Shown: positions 14,239-19,367 of the stretch, in pieces
How the letters are laid out: every line of letters starts with the position of its first letter
How positions within the stretch are numbered: position 1 is the stretch's first letter
Assembly: GCA_902574475.1 (NCBI GenBank)
Contig: CACGNZ010000005.1
Coordinates: 2,466 to 66,465 of the forward strand
Source of the DNA: an uncultured Alphaproteobacteria bacterium
GTDB taxonomy: Bacteria; Pseudomonadota; Alphaproteobacteria; HIMB59; GCA-002718135
Length of the DNA stretch: 64,000 nt
Reading direction: 5' to 3'
Notes under the pieces: model-generated
Told to the model about the DNA's origin: nothing
Seen by the model: only the letters and a program-made list of their open reading frames with translations
The model's database searches: none
Made by a program: the position numbers and the translations under genes

Positions 14239-16765
14239 TCAATTCTTAACTGTTTTTTTCTTTTTTTTGAGACCCATTTTAGCTTTTCTTTCATCAATTA
14301 ACCTAATGGCATCTTCTAGTTTTAAGCTATCTATTGATTGATCACCAAGAATTGAAGCATTTATTTTTCCACATTTTACATATGGTCCAAATTTTCCATC
14401 ATGAGCAGTAATGTTTTTCTTTTCTGTTGGATGCTCACCAAATGTTTTTAGCGTAGCATTACCTCTCTGTGTAGGTTTAGCAATTAATTCAATGGCTCTT
14501 TCAAGTTCAATATCAAGAATATTATCTGTTTTTTCTAGAGCTTTATATTTTTTATCATGCAGAATATATGGTCCATACATTCCTATACCTGCGCTAACCG
14601 TTTTATTTGTTTCTGGATGAAAACCTAATTTACGTGGTAAGCCAAGTAGTTGAATAGCTGTGTTTAATCCTATTTCATCTGGTTCAAAATTTTTAGGAAT
14701 AGAAACTCTTTTTGGTTTCTTTTCTTTTGTCCCTTCACCAACTTGCATATAAAATCCATAAGGACCTTTTCGAAGAGTAATCATTTCACCTGTTTCTGGA
14801 TAAATACCAATTTCTTTTGGTCCGCTAAGAGCAGCGCCATCTTTATCGTTTAATTGATTAAACTGAACCGTATATTTACAATCAGGATAATTAGAGCAGC
14901 CAATAAATCCTCCAAACTTTCCAACTTTAATTCCTAGTCTTCCATTATCACAGGTTGGACATTTCCTTTTTTCATCTGCTCCGTTTGGTGGAAAGAAATG
15001 CGGACCTAGCGCTTCATCTAACACATCAATCACTTCTCTATTTGATTTGCCTACTGTTTCATCACAAAGTTGTTTAAATGTTTCCCAAAATTTTCTTAGA
15101 ACCTCTTTCCAATCAAGCTTACCATCAGAAATTTCATCAAGTTGATTTTCAAGATCAGCGGTAAAATCATATTCTACATATTGATTGAAATATTTCTCTA
15201 AAAATATCGATACTATTCGTCCTCTATCATGAGGATTAAAACGTTTTTTATCTAAAATTACATAATCTCTATCTTGTAGAACTTTAATAATAGAAGCATA
15301 AGTAGATGGTCTGCCAATGCCAAGTTCTTCAAGTTTTTTAACTAAGCTTGCTTCGGTGTAACGAGGAGGAGGGGAGGTAAAATGTTGTGTCTTTTCAACT
15401 TCTTTTAAATTTAAACTCTCTCCTTCACTCATTGCAGGAAGAATTGTTTCTTTTTCTTCATCTTTATCATCATCTTTAGCTTCTTGATAAACTTTGTACA
15501 TTCCAGGAAACTTGATTGTTGATCCATTTGCTCTTAAAACAATTTTTTTATCTTCGTTTGTAATATCAACAGCTACCTGATCTAATACAGCACTCGCCAT
15601 TTGTGAACTTACCGCTCTTTGCCATATAATTTCATATAATTTATATTCTTCTAAAGTAATGTATTGCTTAATATCTTTTGGTGTTAGGTAAATATTTGTT
15701 GGTCTAATACATTCATGTGCTTCTTGGGCATTTTTAGCTTTTGATTTATAAACTCTTGGCGCTTCAGGTAAATAGTTTGCACCATAATTTTCAGTTACAA
15801 AACCTCGAACTTGGTTAATAGCTTCTTTTGACATGATGACACTGTCTGTTCGCATATAAGTTATTAAGCCAGTTGTTTCTCCTTTAATGTCTGTTCCTTC
15901 ATAAAGGCGTTGAGCTGTGCGCATTGTTTGGCTCGCACTAAGACCAAGTTTACGACTAGACTCAATTTGCATCGTAGATGTAGTAAAGGCAGGGTAGGGA
16001 TTTCTTCTAGCTTCTTTTTTTGTTATATTTCCAACAGTGAAAGTAGAATTTTTAATATCATTAAAAATTTTTGTCGCCTCACTCTCATTTTTAATATCAA
16101 GTTTATCTACTTTATTCCCATCATAAACTGTAAGTCTTGAATTAATGATTTTATCTTCTTTATTTCTAAACTCGCCTTGTAAAGACCAATATTCCTGTGG
16201 AATAAATTTTTCTATTTCAAGTTCTCTCTCACTAATTATTCTTAAGGCAACAGATTGAACTCTACCCGCTGATTTTGAACCTGGTAACTTTCTCCATAGT
16301 ACTGGAGAAAGTGTAAAACCGACAAGAAAATCTAACGCTCTTCTTGCAAGGTAAGCATTTACTAAATTTTCATCTATTTCTCTTGGCTCTTTAAGACTAT
16401 CAAGAACTGCATTTTTTGTAATTTCATTAAATGTAACTCGGTGAATATTTAATTTTGAAAGTGATGAATTATCTCTAAGTAATTTTTCTACATGCCAAGC
16501 TATGGCTTCACCTTCACGGTCGGGATCAGTGGCTAGATATAAATTTTCAGATTTTTTTGCTGCATCTGTAATTTCTTTTATAACTTTTTTTTCCACGATC
16601 ACTAGTTTCCCATTTCATTTGGAAATCATTTTCAGTATCTATCGCATCATTTTTTGCTGATAAATCTCGGACATGTCCAACACTTGCGAGAACTTTAAAG
16701 TCAGAGCCTAAATATTTATTAATAGACTTTGCCTTCGATGGTGATTCAACAATTAATACATTCAT
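14239..16765 (-). CDS. topA: DNA topoisomerase I, interrupted by a one-base frameshift in an A8 run (16585-16592)
   Basis: IVESPSKAK and GHVRDL in one frame; [16 protein letters not shown] and ITYMRTD in the next; removing one A gives a continuous ORF. Confidence 0.93.
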
Positions 16766-16777
16766 AAATTTTGGCCC

Positions 16778-16806
16778 CAAATTTCAGTTTAAAGATAATT
16801 CGTCAA
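16778..16806 (-). promoter_or_regulatory. Putative sigma70 promoter of topA
   Basis: TTGACG-N17-AATTTG followed by GGGCC, 12 nt before the ATG. Confidence 0.5.
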
Positions 16807-16830: not shown

Positions 16831-17436
16831 TTACTTGGATAATTTAATTTTACTTTCAGTTTTTTTTATGAGTCTTTTAATGTTTTCTGTGTGTTTAAGA
16901 TAAATAATTAAAGTTAAATAAATAAAGAAAATTAGAATATAAAAATTAAAATTAATAAAAATATAATAAGCTGGAGCTATTAAAATTCCAATTAAAGATC
17001 CAAGAGAAGAGTATTTACTTACAAAAGCAGTAACAAGCCATACCAATAAAAATAAAATTGCAATGTAAGGATTAAAACCAAATAAGAAGCCAATATACGT
17101 AGCCACTCCCTTTCCACCCTTGAATTTTAACCAAACTGGATAGATATGACCTAAAATCGCAAAGTGACAGAGAAGTATTTTATTCAATAAAGAGATATCT
17201 TGAAAATACATTTGTAAAATGAGGAATGGAAGAAAGCCTTTAAAAATATCAAAACAAAGAACAATGAATGCTACAAATTTATTTCCTGTTCTTAAAACAT
17301 TTGTTGCGCCTACATTTCCAGAACCAACCTTTCTAATATCTCCCAAGCCAAATAATTTTGTAAAAATCAATGCAAAGGGTAATGATCCTATTACATAAAA
17401 AAATATGATTAATGATAAACTACTTACTAAAGTCAT
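16831..17436 (-). CDS. plsY: Glycerol-3-phosphate acyltransferase PlsY
   Basis: GSGNVGATNVLR, GHIYP, FKGGKGVAT, HTENIKRL. Confidence 0.96.
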   Translation of the reverse strand: MTLVSSLSLIIFFYVIGSLPFALIFTKLFGLGDIRKVGSGNVGATNVLRTGNKFVAFIVLCFDIFKGFLPFLILQMYFQDISLLNKILLCHFAILGHIYPVWLKFKGGKGVATYIGFLFGFNPYIAILFLLVWLVTAFVSKYSSLGSLIGILIAPAYYIFINFNFYILIFFIYLTLIIYLKHTENIKRLIKKTESKIKLSK

Positions 17437-18565
17437 CTCTGTTTTTAATAATTAAGTCTAAGCATGCCATTCTTACTGCAACGCCCATAGCGACCTGTTC
17501 TTGTATTAAGCTCCTCGTGACGTCATCGGCAAGTTTTGAGTCTATTTCTACACCACGGTTCATTGGACCTGGATGCATAACGAAAGCATTTTTTTTAGCA
17601 TATTTAAGTTTATTGTAATCTAATCCATACTTTTTAAAATAAGTCTTTTGATTAGGCATAATTTTTCCAACTATTCTCTCTTTTTGAATACGTAGCATCA
17701 TAACAATATCACAATTTTGTAATCCCTTTTTCATTTCAGTATAAACATTCACAGGAAGTTTTTTTAAACTTTTTGGTAACCATTCCTTTGGACCAATAAC
17801 ATTTATTTTTGCACCTAACTTTGAGAGAATGATTATGTTTGATCGTGCAACGCGGCTATGTAAAATATCGCCGCATATAGCTATTTTTAATTTTGAAAAA
17901 TTTTCAAATTTATTTTTTATAGTAAGTGCATCTAATAACGCTTGTGTAGGGTGTTCATGACTTCCATCACCAGCGTTAATTACAGAGGCATCAACTGATT
18001 CAGAAATTTTTTTACTAATTCCTTCCTCCGGATGTCTCACAATTAAGACGTCTGGATTCATTGAATTAATAGTAGTCATAGTATCGAGTAAGGTTTCACC
18101 TTTATTTATAGAACTATCTTTTACCACTACATTAATGAGATCTGCTCCTAACCTTTTAGCAGCAACTTCAAAACTTGTTCTTGTTCTTGTTGAATCTTCA
18201 AAGAAAAGATTAAATATTGTTCTCCCCTCTAGAACATTTATTTTTTTAATTTTCCTTTTATTAAAAGATATATATTTTTTAGATTCATCTAAGATGTGCT
18301 TAATTTCTTTCTTGGTTAAGTCAGCTGTTTCTACTAAATGAGTTTTTTTAAAAATATTTTTTGTTCGTTTTAATTTTATATTTGTTTTTGAAGAAATTGA
18401 TGAATAATATTTTAAAGCTATATTTTCTGCATCTTTAAGAATTTTTGAACCTGTAGATGATCTGATCGCTTTTAATTTAGGCAATTTGACTTTCATTTGC
18501 CAATATTTCGAATTTTCTCTTTTATATAATTTTATATGTCCTGATTTTAGTAGTTTTGAATTCAT
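17420..18565 (-). CDS. pyrB: Aspartate carbamoyltransferase catalytic subunit with an ~70-aa N-terminal integrase-arm-like extension
   Basis: FFEDSTRTRTSFE, HPTQALLD, HPGPMNRG; the ATCase core begins near FKKTHL. Confidence 0.95.
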   Translation of the reverse strand: MNSKLLKSGHIKLYKRENSKYWQMKVKLPKLKAIRSSTGSKILKDAENIALKYYSSISSKTNIKLKRTKNIFKKTHLVETADLTKKEIKHILDESKKYISFNKRKIKKINVLEGRTIFNLFFEDSTRTRTSFEVAAKRLGADLINVVVKDSSINKGETLLDTMTTINSMNPDVLIVRHPEEGISKKISESVDASVINAGDGSHEHPTQALLDALTIKNKFENFSKLKIAICGDILHSRVARSNIIILSKLGAKINVIGPKEWLPKSLKKLPVNVYTEMKKGLQNCDIVMMLRIQKERIVGKIMPNQKTYFKKYGLDYNKLKYAKKNAFVMHPGPMNRGVEIDSKLADDVTRSLIQEQVAMGVAVRMACLDLIIKNRDDFSK

Positions 18566-18595
18566 ATGTGTCAATAATGTGTAAGTATGTGTAAA
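18566..18595. repeat. Three phased direct repeats ATGTGT(C/A)A abutting the pyrB start codon
   Basis: ATGTGTCAA at 18566, ATGTGTAAG at 18577 and ATGTGTAAA at 18587 (periods of 11 and 10 bp). Confidence 0.85.
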
Positions 18596-18603
18596 CTAAT
18601 TTA

Positions 18604-19062
18604 TTAATTATTTCTATATCTATCTAAATATCCTTGTAAGATATAAGCAGCCGATTGCTGATCAAGTTTACCTTTTATCTTTGTTTTACTTAAATCAGCT
18701 TTTCTCATTTCTTTAAAAATTACATCAGATGAAAATCTTTCATCCCAAAGAGCCGTAGGTTTTTTAAAAAAGGTTTGGAGATTATTATTAAAATCTCGTA
18801 CTAATTGACTTTGTTTATTTTCACTATTATCCATGCTAATTGGCAGACCAAGAATAAATCCACCAATTTCATACTCTTTCAAAATATCTTTCAAGATGAT
18901 CAAATCTTTATTAGTGCCTTTTCTTTGAATAATTGAAAGCGGTGTAGCGATTATTTTCGATCTATCACTTACTGCAACTCCAATCGTTTTAGTGCCTAGG
19001 TCTAGACCTACAAGTATTTGTGATGTATTAAGACCATCGATTAAATTATTTTGATCATTCAT
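18604..19062 (-). CDS. ruvX: Holliday junction resolvase-like / pre-16S rRNA nuclease RuvX (YqgF)
   Basis: GLDLGTKTIGVAVSD, GLP, WDERFSS, D..SAAYILQ; ATG at 19062. Confidence 0.92.
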   Translation of the reverse strand: MNDQNNLIDGLNTSQILVGLDLGTKTIGVAVSDRSKIIATPLSIIQRKGTNKDLIILKDILKEYEIGGFILGLPISMDNSENKQSQLVRDFNNNLQTFFKKPTALWDERFSSDVIFKEMRKADLSKTKIKGKLDQQSAAYILQGYLDRYRNN

Positions 19063-19079
19063 ATAATGGAGCTCATAAA

Positions 19080-19367
19080 TTGAAGATTGATAAAAATACA
19101 ATAAATAAAATTGCTCGTCTATCTAGAATAAAGTTAGATGATAAAGAATCTGAAGATTATATTAAGGATCTTAATTCCATTTTAGACTGGGTTGAGCAAT
19201 TAAATGAAGTAAATACTGAGAATGTAGAACCGTTAAGTAATATATCATCATCGATATTACCTAAAAGAGAAGATGTATCTAAAGATACGAATTCAAGTGA
19301 GGAAATTCTTGAAAATGCCCCTGATAAACTTGAAGGATTTTTTGCTGTACCAAAGGTGGTAGAATAA
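19080..19367 (+). CDS. gatC: Asp/Glu-tRNA amidotransferase subunit C
   Basis: IARLSRI, ILENAP, FFAVPKVVE; TTG start with upstream GGAG. Confidence 0.95.
   Translation: MKIDKNTINKIARLSRIKLDDKESEDYIKDLNSILDWVEQLNEVNTENVEPLSNISSSILPKREDVSKDTNSSEEILENAPDKLEGFFAVPKVVE

What the first reader, a model, noticed from the sequence alone, without database searches (positions are those of the whole stretch)
18340..18565. PyrB is fused to an integrase arm-DNA-binding-like domain: candidate domesticated 'trigger enzyme'
Seen: the ATCase core (from about FKKTHLVETADL) is preceded in frame by about 70 aa, MNSKLLKSGHIKLYKRENSKYWQMKVKLPKLKAIRSSTGSKILKDAENIALKYY plus a basic linker. There is no in-frame ATG/GTG/TTG between about 18480 and the core, so the extension appears to be translated with the enzyme. 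The catalytic motifs are intact. Knowledge: the pattern G-x-(I/V)-x-LYKRxNSxxWQ...R-x-ST...A...A..Y matches, from recall, the three-stranded-sheet-plus-helix arm-binding domain at the N-terminus of alphaproteobacterial tyrosine integrases. Inference: a mobile-element DNA-binding module has been grafted onto a core pyrimidine enzyme. In a regulator-poor streamlined genome this could let ATCase bind DNA in response to metabolic state. I know of no described PyrB with such a domain.
Basis: partly seen in the sequence, partly recalled or inferred. Interest (0 to 1): 0.9.

Follow-up and report, generated by a model that had tools for sequence, protein, structure and literature searches.

The report
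PyrB fused to integrase DNA-binding module
In one family of streamlined marine bacteria, the pyrimidine enzyme PyrB carries a conserved DNA-binding head taken from a mobile-element integrase, together with the short DNA repeats such heads sit next to, so the enzyme probably switches off its own gene.

Summary
pyrB (minus strand, 17423-18565, 381 aa) has intact ATCase domains (residues 76-371) behind a 57-aa domain and an 18-aa basic linker, with no later canonical start codon. The fusion occurs in 87 of 116 genomes of the family and 0 of 71 in the sister family. One genus lost it secondarily. The domain is under purifying selection (dN/dS about 0.03-0.17) and the linker is relaxed. A profile of the domain, searched against 1.84 billion proteins, finds the N-termini of tyrosine integrases (E down to 6e-9). 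The reciprocal integrase-only profile hits only pyrB in this genome (E 8e-19).

New here: three CACA boxes (TTACACAT-like, 10-11 bp period) fill the 30 bp before the start codon. They are present in 78 of 80 species and unique in this genome. The same CTTACACA repeats at an 11-bp period lie just upstream of 7-10 of 14 homologous integrase genes, and almost never elsewhere in those loci.

Best reading: an integrase self-control module (arm-type sites plus arm-binding domain) was captured, making ATCase an autoregulator. DNA binding is inferred, not shown. Foldseek against PDB and Pfam gave no support for the fold.

The parts
18566..18595 (-). Array of three direct repeats that abuts the start codon: TTTACACAT (18587-18595), CTTACACAT (18577-18585) and TTGACACAT (18566-18574). 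The ACACAT cores lie at 18587-18592, 18577-18582 and 18566-18571, with periods of 10 and 11 bp. This is the candidate operator, made of former integrase arm-type sites.
   Evidence: The sequence is. These are the only ACACAT-N4-5-ACACAT pairs in the 1.30-Mb assembly (2 of 2 at this locus; 423 single ACACAT on both strands). Of 1,081 ORF starts, this is the only one with ACACAT directly before ATG or with two or more ACACAT in -40..-1. Three boxes in a fixed register occur in 78 of 80 species loci, and the CACA cores are invariant in 46 distinct upstream sequences. The same motif and period lie upstream of the homologous integrase genes.
18395..18565 (-). N-terminal domain, residues 1-57: integrase-derived, predicted beta-sheet plus helix, strongly basic.
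   Evidence: The AlphaFold2 model has strands 2-6, 11-15, 23-26 and 34-37, a helix at 43-61, and mean pLDDT 92.9. Y14, K15, R16, S19, W22, Q23, K27, P29, R35, A46 and Y54 are invariant across 13 sequences from 7 genera. dN/dS is 0.03-0.17 in pairs within g1 and the closest g7 rows. Profile hits to integrase N-termini come, and the reciprocal HMM gives E 7.6e-19.
18341..18394 (-). Linker, residues 58-75: basic, variable in sequence and length, predicted to be disordered.
   Evidence: The alignment shows indels and low conservation. dN/dS is 0.21-0.65 in g1 and g7 pairs and reaches 1 or more in some g3/g5/g9 pairs, on few sites. pLDDT is 58-66 in the full-length model.
17423..18340 (-). Aspartate carbamoyltransferase catalytic core, residues 76-381. 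The stop codon is at 17420-17422 and overlaps the plsY start.
   Evidence: Pfam OTCace_N and OTCace are both far above cut-off. The motifs STRTR, HPTQ, HSRV, LRIQ and HPGP are present in the translation (their catalytic roles are recalled from E. coli ATCase). dN/dS is 0.02-0.06.
18604..19101 (-). ruvX, the upstream neighbour on the same strand. Its stop codon is at 18604-18606, which leaves a 38-nt intergenic space that the boxes fill.
   Evidence: Pfam RuvX, E 3.9e-39. In the sister family, ruvX runs straight into a 302-309-aa pyrB without the domain or the boxes.

Best explanation
This is a catalytically intact PyrB (ATCase catalytic chain). Its first 57 residues are the N-terminal, arm-site-type DNA-binding domain of a tyrosine integrase, joined to the enzyme by a flexible basic linker of about 18 residues. 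The fusion arose once, in the ancestor of this family of streamlined marine alphaproteobacteria. It brought the integrase gene's own 5' control region with it: three direct CACA repeats (consensus TTACACAT, one helical turn apart) that now end at the pyrB start codon. I propose that the N-domains bind these three boxes and so repress pyrB expression, by blocking the promoter or 5' end. If the enzyme is a trimer like other ATCases, it would carry three such domains. This would work as tRNA-linked integrases repress their own genes through arm-type sites that overlap their promoters. Shown here: the fusion, its translation under purifying selection, its homology to integrase N-domains, and the co-occurrence of the same repeat motif with that domain in both integrase genes and pyrB. 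Inferred: DNA binding by the PyrB domain, the boxes as its target, the sign of regulation, and the match of trimer to three boxes. Speculative: any dependence of binding on substrates or nucleotides.
For: Fusion and selection. The fused frame is present once in each of 87 of 187 genomes of the order, all in family f1 (86 of 115 plus the window's own), and in 0 of 71 genomes of family f2. In f2, 16 of 16 PyrB matches start at query residues 71-79 in 302-309-aa frames. dN/dS is 0.03-0.17 for the domain, 0.02-0.06 for the core and 0.21-0.65 for the linker.

Homology. A profile search of 1.84 billion proteins gave 117 hits at E <= 1e-3. After 32 top hits (the 4 I read are PyrB N-terminal fragments or chimeras), the hits match at the N-termini of integrases, for example E 6.1e-9, 1.8e-8 and 3e-7. 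All 10 of 10 tested carry integrase or SAM-like Pfam domains. All 6 of 6 match PHROG integrase at E 1e-25 to 1e-37. The reciprocal HMM built from 14 integrase N-domains hits 1 of 8,024 frames of this genome, the pyrB frame (E 7.6e-19).

Fold. The model is confident and shows a sheet plus helix. The nearest named ESM-Atlas clusters are Integrase_DNA (PF02920), Integrase_N_phage and Arm-DNA-bind_2, at 0.93 (leads only).

Boxes. They are unique in the genome. Three boxes occur in 78 of 80 species and at least two in 80 of 80. The CACA cores are invariant while the spacers vary. Boxes are recognisable in six other genera.

Prediction tested. Among 14 homologous integrase genes from other alphaproteobacterial families, 7 have TACACA-N4-6-TACACA and 10 have the looser pair within 150 nt upstream of the start, on the coding strand. 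Elsewhere in those loci (83,480 nt) there are 0 strict and 1 loose pairs. One more locus shows a variant pair once its start is corrected. Ten of the 14 loci hold a tRNA gene, often immediately upstream of the integrase gene, so the boxes occupy the attL arm position. No other copy of the domain exists in any of the 87 genomes (one match each), so the PyrB domain is the only candidate binder left.

Co-loss. Genus g8 (G130) lacks both the domain and the boxes and nests among fused PyrBs in the tree.

Precedent. IntS of KplE1 represses its own promoter, which overlaps the attL region holding its arm-type and core-type sites, and 61.5% of tRNA-linked integrase genes were predicted to be built that way (PMC2951348, passages read).
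Against: There is no direct evidence of DNA binding. Foldseek found no PDB structure at E <= 0.001; the best hit was E 1.1, to MurC. BFVD gave none at E <= 0.001; integrases appear only at ranks 3, 4 and 36, with E 0.065-0.85. No Pfam, NCBIfam or PHROG family matches the PyrB domain alone. No Pfam arm-binding family matches the homologous integrase N-termini, apart from weak DUF6538 hits. The PDB sequence-profile search gave 0 hits at E <= 10. That this integrase subfamily's N-domain binds the CACA repeats is itself an inference from co-occurrence. Three or four of the 14 integrase loci show no such pair. The boxes could instead be conserved as promoter or translation-start elements. No CACA pair was found near any other gene, so there is no regulon to corroborate a regulator role. 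One genus does without the domain. The 14 integrases behind the reciprocal HMM were chosen from hits of the PyrB profile, so that test is not fully independent. dS is saturated in the more distant pairs, and the domain has only about 34 synonymous sites.
Confidence: 0.55

Rival explanations
1. The domain is retained for a role that does not involve the upstream boxes, such as protein-protein contact, higher-order assembly or allosteric control of ATCase, taking the part PyrI or PyrC' plays elsewhere. Under this reading the boxes are conserved only because they form the promoter or translation-start context inherited from the integrase gene.
For: The order lacks the usual ATCase partners. PyrI is over cut-off in 0 of 80 genomes. 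No pyrC_multi-type hit is over cut-off in the window's genome or in 5 other genomes. Box 1 (TTTACA) and box 3 (TTGACA) resemble -35 hexamers (sequence). CA-rich leaders are known translational enhancers in E. coli (recalled, not checked here).
Against: The sister family also lacks PyrI and PyrC' yet has no extension, so there is no gap for the domain to fill. Residues invariant in PyrB and nearly invariant in the integrases (R16, W22, Q23) point to a retained ancestral activity. The same repeats occur upstream of GC-rich integrase genes in unrelated families, which a host-specific promoter or translation signal would not explain. The promoter scan found no consensus promoter over the boxes. 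ACACAT before ATG is not a general start context (1 of 1,081 ORFs).
Confidence: 0.2
2. The domain binds nucleic acid, but the target is the mRNA: ACACAU repeats in a ruvX-pyrB co-transcript. This would give translational rather than transcriptional autoregulation.
For: The boxes end at the start codon and fill a 38-nt space after ruvX on the same strand. Contigs from two RNA libraries run from ruvX or its 3' end across the boxes into pyrB: X1 record 4 (18452-18605) and X2 record 14 (18540-18897). RNA libraries can contain DNA, and these contigs are 90-99% alike, so they come from relatives.
Against: In the integrase genes the same boxes lie between a tRNA gene and int, the position of double-stranded arm-type DNA sites (PMC2951348). 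The boxes have no G-C pairing potential and so no evident RNA structure (sequence). Arm-type domains are known as double-stranded DNA binders (recalled).
Confidence: 0.1
3. The fused domain acts on mobile elements rather than on pyrB. As a decoy or competitor for arm sites, it would interfere with integration or excision of elements that use this integrase family.
For: None of the 187 genomes of the order holds an integrase with this domain (one match per genome, always pyrB). Integrases of this family are common in other Alphaproteobacteria (20 of 399 other genomes).
Against: It does not explain why the domain is fused to PyrB, or why the boxes are kept at pyrB itself in 78 of 80 species. No such element was seen in these genomes.
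Confidence: 0.05
4. The extension is a non-functional relic or a mis-called start, and the real protein begins near the ATCase core.
For: One genus has a 310-aa PyrB without it, so ATCase does not need the domain.
Against: There is no canonical in-frame start between codon 28 and the core. Purifying selection on residues 1-57 is close to that on the core. The frame is kept open in all 87 genomes, with no stops inside. The fold prediction is confident.
Confidence: 0.02

Closest known systems
N-terminal arm-type DNA-binding domain of heterobivalent tyrosine integrases (lambda Int, Tn916 Int, KplE1 IntS)
   Same: It is a small domain at the extreme N-terminus, followed in the homologous integrases by the SAM-like core-binding and catalytic domains. 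The predicted fold is a beta-sheet packed on one helix. It is associated with short direct repeats that lie between a tRNA or att site and the int start. The N-domain's role in binding arm-type sites is as described in PMC2951348 (introduction passage).
   Different: Here the domain is followed by an ATCase, not a recombinase. No Pfam arm-binding family, PDB sequence or PDB fold match was obtained. This integrase subfamily's N-domain appears not to be covered by Pfam. The model has four strands, whereas I recall three for lambda Int and Tn916 Int.
Negatively autoregulated integrase genes whose promoter overlaps attL (KplE1 intS; Panis et al. 2010, PMC2951348)
   Same: The layout is tRNA, then arm-type repeats, then the start codon of the gene that encodes the arm-binding domain. 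The proposed logic of self-repression is the same.
   Different: The regulated product is a biosynthetic enzyme, and no recombination partner, core site or directionality factor remains. Repression is predicted here, not measured. The box sequence (TTACACA) differs from the TAAA-containing P' sites of KplE1.
Trigger enzymes with a fused DNA-binding domain (PutA with its ribbon-helix-helix domain, BirA, NadR), and the pyrimidine-pathway regulators PyrR and PyrH/PepA at carAB
   Same: One polypeptide combines a metabolic enzyme with a DNA-binding module and probably controls its own pathway gene. PyrH and PepA are called trigger enzymes at carP1 in the abstract of PMC2952853 (search listing). 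PutA, BirA, NadR and PyrR are recalled.
   Different: The DNA-binding module is of mobile-element origin and seems to have arrived together with its operator. The enzyme is ATCase, for which I found no such fusion in print. Only one target site is detectable.
Stand-alone ATCase catalytic chains (Bacillus-type 'class C' PyrB), and the PyrI- or PyrC'-associated classes
   Same: The core has both OTCace domains and the conserved motifs. As in class C, no PyrI or PyrC' partner is found. The classes themselves are recalled.
   Different: It carries a 75-residue N-terminal addition that the sister family's 302-309-aa PyrB lacks.
AP2/ERF and ApiAP2 transcription factors, thought to derive from integrase or homing-endonuclease DNA-binding domains (recalled)
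   Same: A mobile-element sheet-plus-helix DNA-binding domain is taken over for host gene control.
   Different: Those are eukaryotic, stand-alone transcription factors. I ran no test of a relationship to AP2 here.

Membership tests
Aspartate carbamoyltransferase catalytic chain (PyrB) | Carbamoyl-phosphate-binding domain (Pfam OTCace_N) and aspartate-binding domain (Pfam OTCace), both over the curated cut-offs | tested here: met
   146.3 bits against a cut-off of 29.9, and 79 bits against 29.4.
Aspartate carbamoyltransferase catalytic chain (PyrB) | Conserved active-site motifs (STRTR, R-H, HPTQ, HSRV, LRIQ, HPGP) | tested here: met
   All are present in the translation and invariant in 13 family sequences. 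Their catalytic roles are recalled from E. coli ATCase.
Aspartate carbamoyltransferase catalytic chain (PyrB) | Distinct from the ornithine carbamoyltransferase paralogue | tested here: met
   A separate paralogue of about 30% identity lies elsewhere in the same genomes, for example G000:C1:131602-132531.
Integrase arm-type DNA-binding N-domain | Sequence homology to the N-terminal domain of tyrosine recombinases that carry core-binding and catalytic domains | tested here: met
   E is 6e-9 to 1e-3 library-wide, and the reciprocal HMM gives E 7.6e-19.
Integrase arm-type DNA-binding N-domain | Antiparallel beta-sheet packed against a C-terminal helix | tested here: inconclusive
   The AlphaFold2 model has four strands plus one helix at pLDDT 92.9. 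Foldseek gave no PDB match at E <= 0.001 and only weak BFVD integrase matches (TMq 0.70, rmsd 1.7 A over 53 columns, E 0.065).
Integrase arm-type DNA-binding N-domain | Match to a curated arm-binding family (Pfam Arm-DNA-bind_1 to _5, Integrase_DNA) | tested here: not met
   There is no Pfam hit at E <= 10 on the PyrB domain or on the N-termini of 10 homologous integrases. ESM-Atlas neighbours with such families score only 0.93.
Integrase arm-type DNA-binding N-domain | Binds direct-repeat arm-type sites that are distinct from the core site | not testable with these tools
   The evidence is indirect. CTTACACA repeats at an 11-bp period lie upstream of 7-10 of 14 homologous int genes, and three such boxes lie upstream of pyrB in 78 of 80 species.
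Trigger enzyme (enzyme that is also a gene regulator) | Enzyme and nucleic-acid-binding module in one protein | tested here: met
   Met by homology and prediction only.
Trigger enzyme (enzyme that is also a gene regulator) | Binds an operator of its own pathway, and binding changes with metabolic state | not testable with these tools
   A candidate operator was identified. There are no binding or expression data.

The most novel reading that the evidence does not exclude
A complete self-repressing control cassette of a tRNA-targeting integrative element (promoter-proximal arm-site array plus arm-binding domain) was captured in one step by a housekeeping gene. Because ATCase is a trimer, the protein would carry three DNA-binding heads that match the three boxes spaced one helical turn apart. 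The large domain closure of ATCase on binding carbamoyl phosphate and aspartate could then couple occupancy of the operator to substrate supply. That would give a regulator-poor, streamlined cell a one-protein feedback loop for the committed step of pyrimidine synthesis.
Probability: 0.3. Interest if true: 0.85.

Novelty: new variant of a known kind. Interest (0 to 1): 0.78.

Why it matters
Streamlined oceanic bacteria have very few transcription factors, and how they control core metabolism is an open question. Here a committed-step enzyme appears to have acquired its own DNA-binding head and operator from a mobile element. The arrangement has been kept across a whole family that record titles place in the HIMB59 / SAR11-like group.

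If binding is confirmed, it would be the first ATCase known to regulate a gene. It would also be a bacterial case of an integrase arm-binding module taken over for host gene control, and a clean example of a regulatory protein and its cis-element being co-opted together.

The work also defines a previously unmodelled integrase N-domain family and a candidate recognition motif for it (TTACACA at an 11-bp period). That could help in finding att arms of genomic islands in Alphaproteobacteria.

The hypothesis is directly testable with a 60-bp DNA and a recombinant protein. The genus that lost both parts offers a natural control.

Tried and rejected
Chance similarity in the own genome. The only other hit of the extension (E 0.115) lies in TrpB and was rejected as chance. 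Weak family-wide hits at E 0.007-0.14 lie in TrpB, a dehydrogenase, a threonine-dehydratase-like protein and short frames.

Sequence and family searches. The PDB sequence-profile search gave 0 hits. A full integrase (P0072) hit only the catalytic domain of XerH. Pfam, NCBIfam and PHROGs gave nothing on the domain alone.

Complex prediction (N-domain against ATCase core) returned no verdict, with scores 0.00 and 0.00. This is neither for nor against binding.

The idea that the domain replaces PyrC' or PyrI was rejected, because the sister family lacks both as well.

A CtrA-like TTAA-N7-TTAA reading of boxes 2-3 in some species was rejected, because the TTAA positions vary while the CACA cores are invariant.

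The promoter and terminator scan showed nothing over the boxes; 3 promoter-like sites were found against 7.3 expected.

Regulon search. No other (T/A/G)ACACA pair exists in the genome. Four looser pairs appear, from their sequence and setting, to lie in or beside coding sequence and to be chance.

RNA evidence. Only contigs from metatranscriptome runs were available. They cover parts of the stretch and cannot show transcript ends or strand. The linker region (about 18260-18450) had little or no cover in the four runs laid, which proves nothing.

Metagenome proteins with the domain joined to IspH, RpoN or other sequence (P0123, P0191, P0011) are single-member clusters. P0123 and P0191 sit on short contigs of 948 and 2,716 nt. 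I take them for assembly chimeras.

Of the 29 family genomes without the domain, I checked 5. In four no pyrB was found at all, and one (G130) has pyrB without the domain. From, three more lack pyrB and two hold 5'-truncated fragments at contig ends. The remaining 19 were not checked.

Literature. Searches found no paper on an ATCase with a DNA-binding or integrase domain, none linking TTACACA repeats to integrases (the 15 of 61 listed are irrelevant), and none on bacterial take-over of arm-binding domains. In PMC10308909 the words pyrB, carbamoyltransferase and integrase do not occur in the main text. Supplements were closed and not seen.
Full report
WHAT IS THERE. The finding lies on the minus strand. 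The open frame 17420-18574 holds an ATG at 18563-18565 and gives a 381-aa protein. Pfam places the two ATCase domains at residues 76-217 (OTCace_N, E 9.5e-43) and 225-371 (OTCace, E 5.4e-22). It finds nothing over cut-off in residues 1-75. Reading the codons, the only in-frame ATG/GTG/TTG after M1 are at codons 24 and 28. None lies between codon 28 (18482-18484) and the core. The neighbours are ruvX upstream on the same strand (stop at 18604-18606) and plsY downstream, overlapping the pyrB stop. Further along come topA on one side and gatCAB on the other.

IT IS REAL, OLD AND SELECTED. In 25 genomes of the genus (the window's own included), 17 have the full 1-381 match. Four have contig-end fragments and four have no pyrB in the assembly. 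All 16 genomes of the sister family f2 match only from residues 71-79 onward, in 302-309-aa frames. A profile of the first 58 residues (alignment A3) finds exactly one match in each of 87 of 187 genomes of the order: 86 of 115 in family f1 plus the window's own, and 0 of 71 in f2. Every match lies in a pyrB-sized frame with no stops, apart from contig-end truncations. Seven of the eight genera of the family have it. Eighty species-representative records hold it. Their titles read 'uncultured Alphaproteobacteria bacterium' single-cell genomes and MAGs, 'Pelagibacteraceae bacterium', 'HIMB59-LRMED' and 'SAR11-SAG-MED31'. In the 5.8-billion-protein collection, 628 clusters match residues 1-75 at E <= 0.001. 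Of the 120 listed, 115 carry both ATCase Pfam domains, and two are named 'aspartate carbamoyltransferase catalytic subunit' by NCBI.

Nei-Gojobori dN/dS in pairs within g1 and the closest g7 rows is 0.03-0.17 for residues 1-57, 0.02-0.06 for the core and 0.21-0.65 for residues 58-75. Between genera, ratios for the domain rise to 0.11-0.40 and for the core to 0.05-0.12. The linker approaches or exceeds 1 in some pairs among the other genera. dS is saturated in the distant pairs and the domain has only about 34 synonymous sites. The alignment shows a block with invariant Y14, K15, R16, S19, W22, Q23, K27, P29, R35, A46 and Y54, followed by a linker with indels. This is the pattern of a translated, folded domain on a flexible tether.

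ONE SECONDARY LOSS. Genus g8 (G130, 93% complete) has a 310-aa PyrB that starts 6 nt after the ruvX stop, with no domain. In a maximum-likelihood tree of the core, rooted by five f2 rows, G130 sits inside a 7-row clade with 100/99 support. The other six rows of that clade are all fused, and the clade itself lies inside the fused f1 clade. The most economical reading is one gain at the base of the family and one loss. This is a single-gene tree, and G130's immediate sister grouping is weakly supported (82/66).

WHAT THE DOMAIN IS. AlphaFold2 folds residues 1-64 with mean pLDDT 92.9 into strands 2-6, 11-15, 23-26 and 34-37 and a helix at 43-61. In the full-length model the domain is confident (block means 77-95) and the linker is not (58-66). 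The A3 profile was searched by HMMER against 1.84 billion representative proteins and gave 117 hits at E <= 1e-3. The top 32 begin with the PyrB domain; the four I read are PyrB fragments or chimeras. The remaining 85 match at or near their N-termini. Fifty-one of them are shorter than 150 aa. All 10 of the longest I tested carry Phage_integrase and/or integrase SAM-like domains after the match. Of the 17 hits of 300 aa or more, 12 show the R-H-(T/Y) motif of tyrosine recombinases and one is a spurious FG-GAP repeat protein. Six of six match the PHROG integrase family phrog_1 at E 1e-25 to 1e-37. An HMM built only from the N-domains of 14 of these integrases hits one of 8,024 six-frame open frames of the window's genome, the pyrB frame, at E 7.6e-19. 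These 14 were selected through the PyrB profile, so this test is not fully independent. ESM-Atlas neighbours with names are Integrase_DNA (PF02920, 100% of members), Integrase_N_phage (98%) and Arm-DNA-bind_2 (11%), each at 0.93. These are leads only.

Against this, several searches found nothing. Foldseek found nothing in PDB at E <= 0.001. In BFVD the best hit is E 5.7e-3, and integrases appear at ranks 3, 4 and 36; rank 3 has TMq 0.70 and rmsd 1.7 A over 53 columns at E 0.065. No PDB sequence matches the profile. No Pfam arm-binding family matches either the PyrB domain or the integrase N-termini. Homology to the N-terminal domain of a tyrosine-integrase subfamily is therefore firmly supported. 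Calling it 'arm-type DNA-binding' rests on position in the protein, predicted topology and the repeats described next.

THE REPEATS. The 38-nt space between ruvX and pyrB is filled by three direct repeats on the coding strand: TTTACACAT, CTTACACAT and TTGACACAT. The ACACAT cores lie at 18587-18592, 18577-18582 and 18566-18571, which gives periods of 10 and 11 bp, and the last box abuts the ATG. In the 1.30-Mb assembly there are 423 ACACAT words on both strands but only two ACACAT-N4-5-ACACAT pairs, and both are here. Among 1,081 ORFs of 150 aa or more, this is the only one with ACACAT directly before ATG, or with two or more ACACAT in the 40 nt upstream. Three boxes in the same register (-28, -18, -7) occur in 78 of 80 species loci, and at least two occur in all 80. 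Across 46 distinct upstream sequences the CACA cores are invariant, while positions -22, -20, -18, -17, -12, -10, -7 and -6 vary. Recognisable boxes persist in the six other genera, where the rest of the intergenic sequence no longer aligns. Box 2 is degenerate in g4 and g6. The sister family has none (0 of 7 loci within 300 nt), and G130 has none.

THE TEST. If the boxes are the cognate sites of the captured domain, integrase genes with the same domain should have them too. A3 was searched in 401 genomes of the class. It found the pyrB fusion only in the two f1 genomes, and integrase-sized frames in 20 others. For the 14 loci with an identifiable integrase frame, 7 have a strict TACACA-N4-6-TACACA pair and 10 have a looser (N)(A/G)CACA pair within 150 nt upstream of the start, on the coding strand. 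The usual form is CTTACACA-N3-CTTACACA, an 11-bp period. One locus (L063) has three boxes. The rest of those loci (83,480 nt, both strands) holds 0 strict and 1 loose pair. L080 shows a variant pair once its start codon is corrected. L069, L071 and L077 show none. Ten of the 14 loci hold a tRNA gene (Met, Arg, Leu, Asn or Ile). In several it lies just upstream and in the same orientation, so the boxes sit between the tRNA 3' end and int. That is the attL arm position. The boxes recur next to different tRNAs, so they belong to the element and not to the core site. Relatives of one such integrase in plasmids are annotated 'site-specific integrase' or 'tyrosine-type recombinase/integrase'.

HOW IT MOST LIKELY WORKS. 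In KplE1 and many tRNA-linked elements, the attL region with its arm-type and core-type sites overlaps the int promoter, and the integrase represses its own gene. [quoted passage not shown] I propose that the ancestor of this family suffered an integration between ruvX and pyrB. A deletion then fused the 5' end of int, with its arm-site array, in frame to pyrB. The outcome is a PyrB whose N-domains bind the three boxes at its own start and lower its own expression. ATCase catalytic chains are trimers (established knowledge). Three heads on tethers of about 18 residues could reach three boxes on one face of the helix; this is inference. No other copy of the domain exists in any of the 87 genomes, so PyrB is the only element-derived candidate binder. 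Whether binding responds to substrates or nucleotides is open. The order lacks PyrI (0 of 80 over cut-off) and has no PyrC'-type partner over cut-off, so a transcriptional feedback loop would not be redundant.

RIVALS. (a) The domain serves the enzyme itself (assembly or allostery), and the boxes are merely promoter or translation elements. (b) The target is the mRNA. (c) The domain is an anti-mobile-element decoy. (d) It is a relic or a mis-called start. I reject (d) on the basis. Rival (a) is weakened by the sister family's equal lack of partners and by the boxes' presence at GC-rich integrase genes. Rival (b) is possible, because RNA-library contigs run from ruvX across the boxes into pyrB. 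However, the integrase context argues for duplex DNA.

COMPARISON AND NOVELTY. The core is an ordinary PyrB. The domain belongs to a tyrosine-integrase N-domain family that Pfam does not model. The proposed mechanism resembles integrase self-repression and PutA- or BirA-type trigger enzymes (recalled). I found no paper describing an ATCase with a DNA-binding or integrase-derived domain, none on the TTACACA repeats of these integrases, and no mention of pyrB or integrase in the main text of the clade's genomic description (PMC10308909). I rate it a new variant of a known kind, namely an enzyme-regulator fusion. It has the unusual feature that the protein module and its cis-element seem to have been co-opted together.

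LIMITS. Nothing here shows binding. The fold comparison failed against solved structures. The pairing of domain and motif is by co-occurrence only. Supplements were not available.

Noticed in passing
window 14239-16780 (minus strand), break near 16585-16592: topA is split into two overlapping frames (16547-16780 holds the first half of Toprim; 14239-16602 holds the rest). The break is at a run of eight A. It is probably a homopolymer error in the assembly, but a real frameshift is not excluded.
   Followed up: partly
loci L063-L080 (integrase genes in other alphaproteobacterial families): A tyrosine-integrase subfamily has an N-terminal motif of the form (H/K)(V/L)YKRxNSx(Y/F)WQC...STK...AKxFAEDWY that Pfam does not model. 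It carries CTTACACA direct repeats at an 11-bp period just upstream of int, often beside tRNA-Met, -Arg or -Leu genes. This is a candidate arm-site motif for finding island ends.
   Followed up: partly
proteins P0123, P0191, P0011 (metagenome clusters): The PyrB N-domain and linker are joined to an IspH C-terminal half, an RpoN C-terminal domain or unrelated sequence. P0123 and P0191 sit on short contigs (948 and 2,716 nt), and both are single-member clusters. They are probably assembly chimeras, but I did not check this.
   Followed up: no
window 17420-17436: The pyrB stop overlaps the plsY start by 17 nt. No dihydroorotase-like gene lies between pyrB and plsY. The only pyrC-like hits in the genome are weak matches (E 5.2e-8 and 2.6e-5), in a 356-aa frame on contig C22 and a 395-aa frame on C16.
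   Followed up: partly
G124:C5:6358-7620: One genus (g6) has an extra 270.6-bit match to pyrC_multi, just under the 279-bit cut-off. The other four genomes searched lack it. Its identity (dihydroorotase, allantoinase or hydantoinase) was not examined.
   Followed up: no
window 18566-18597, read in the pyrB frame: The boxes translate in frame as FTHTYTLLTH with no stop, so ORF finders start the gene at the TTG at 18572-18574, inside box 3. The ATG at 18563-18565 is the start conserved in all genera.
   Followed up: yes
G000:C4:26869-26982 (TrpB): TrpB contains RSVSTGSKSLKDAMNEALRDW, which resembles residues 35-55 of the PyrB domain (about 40% identity over 40 residues, E about 0.1). It recurs across the family because TrpB is conserved. 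I judged it chance.
   Followed up: yes
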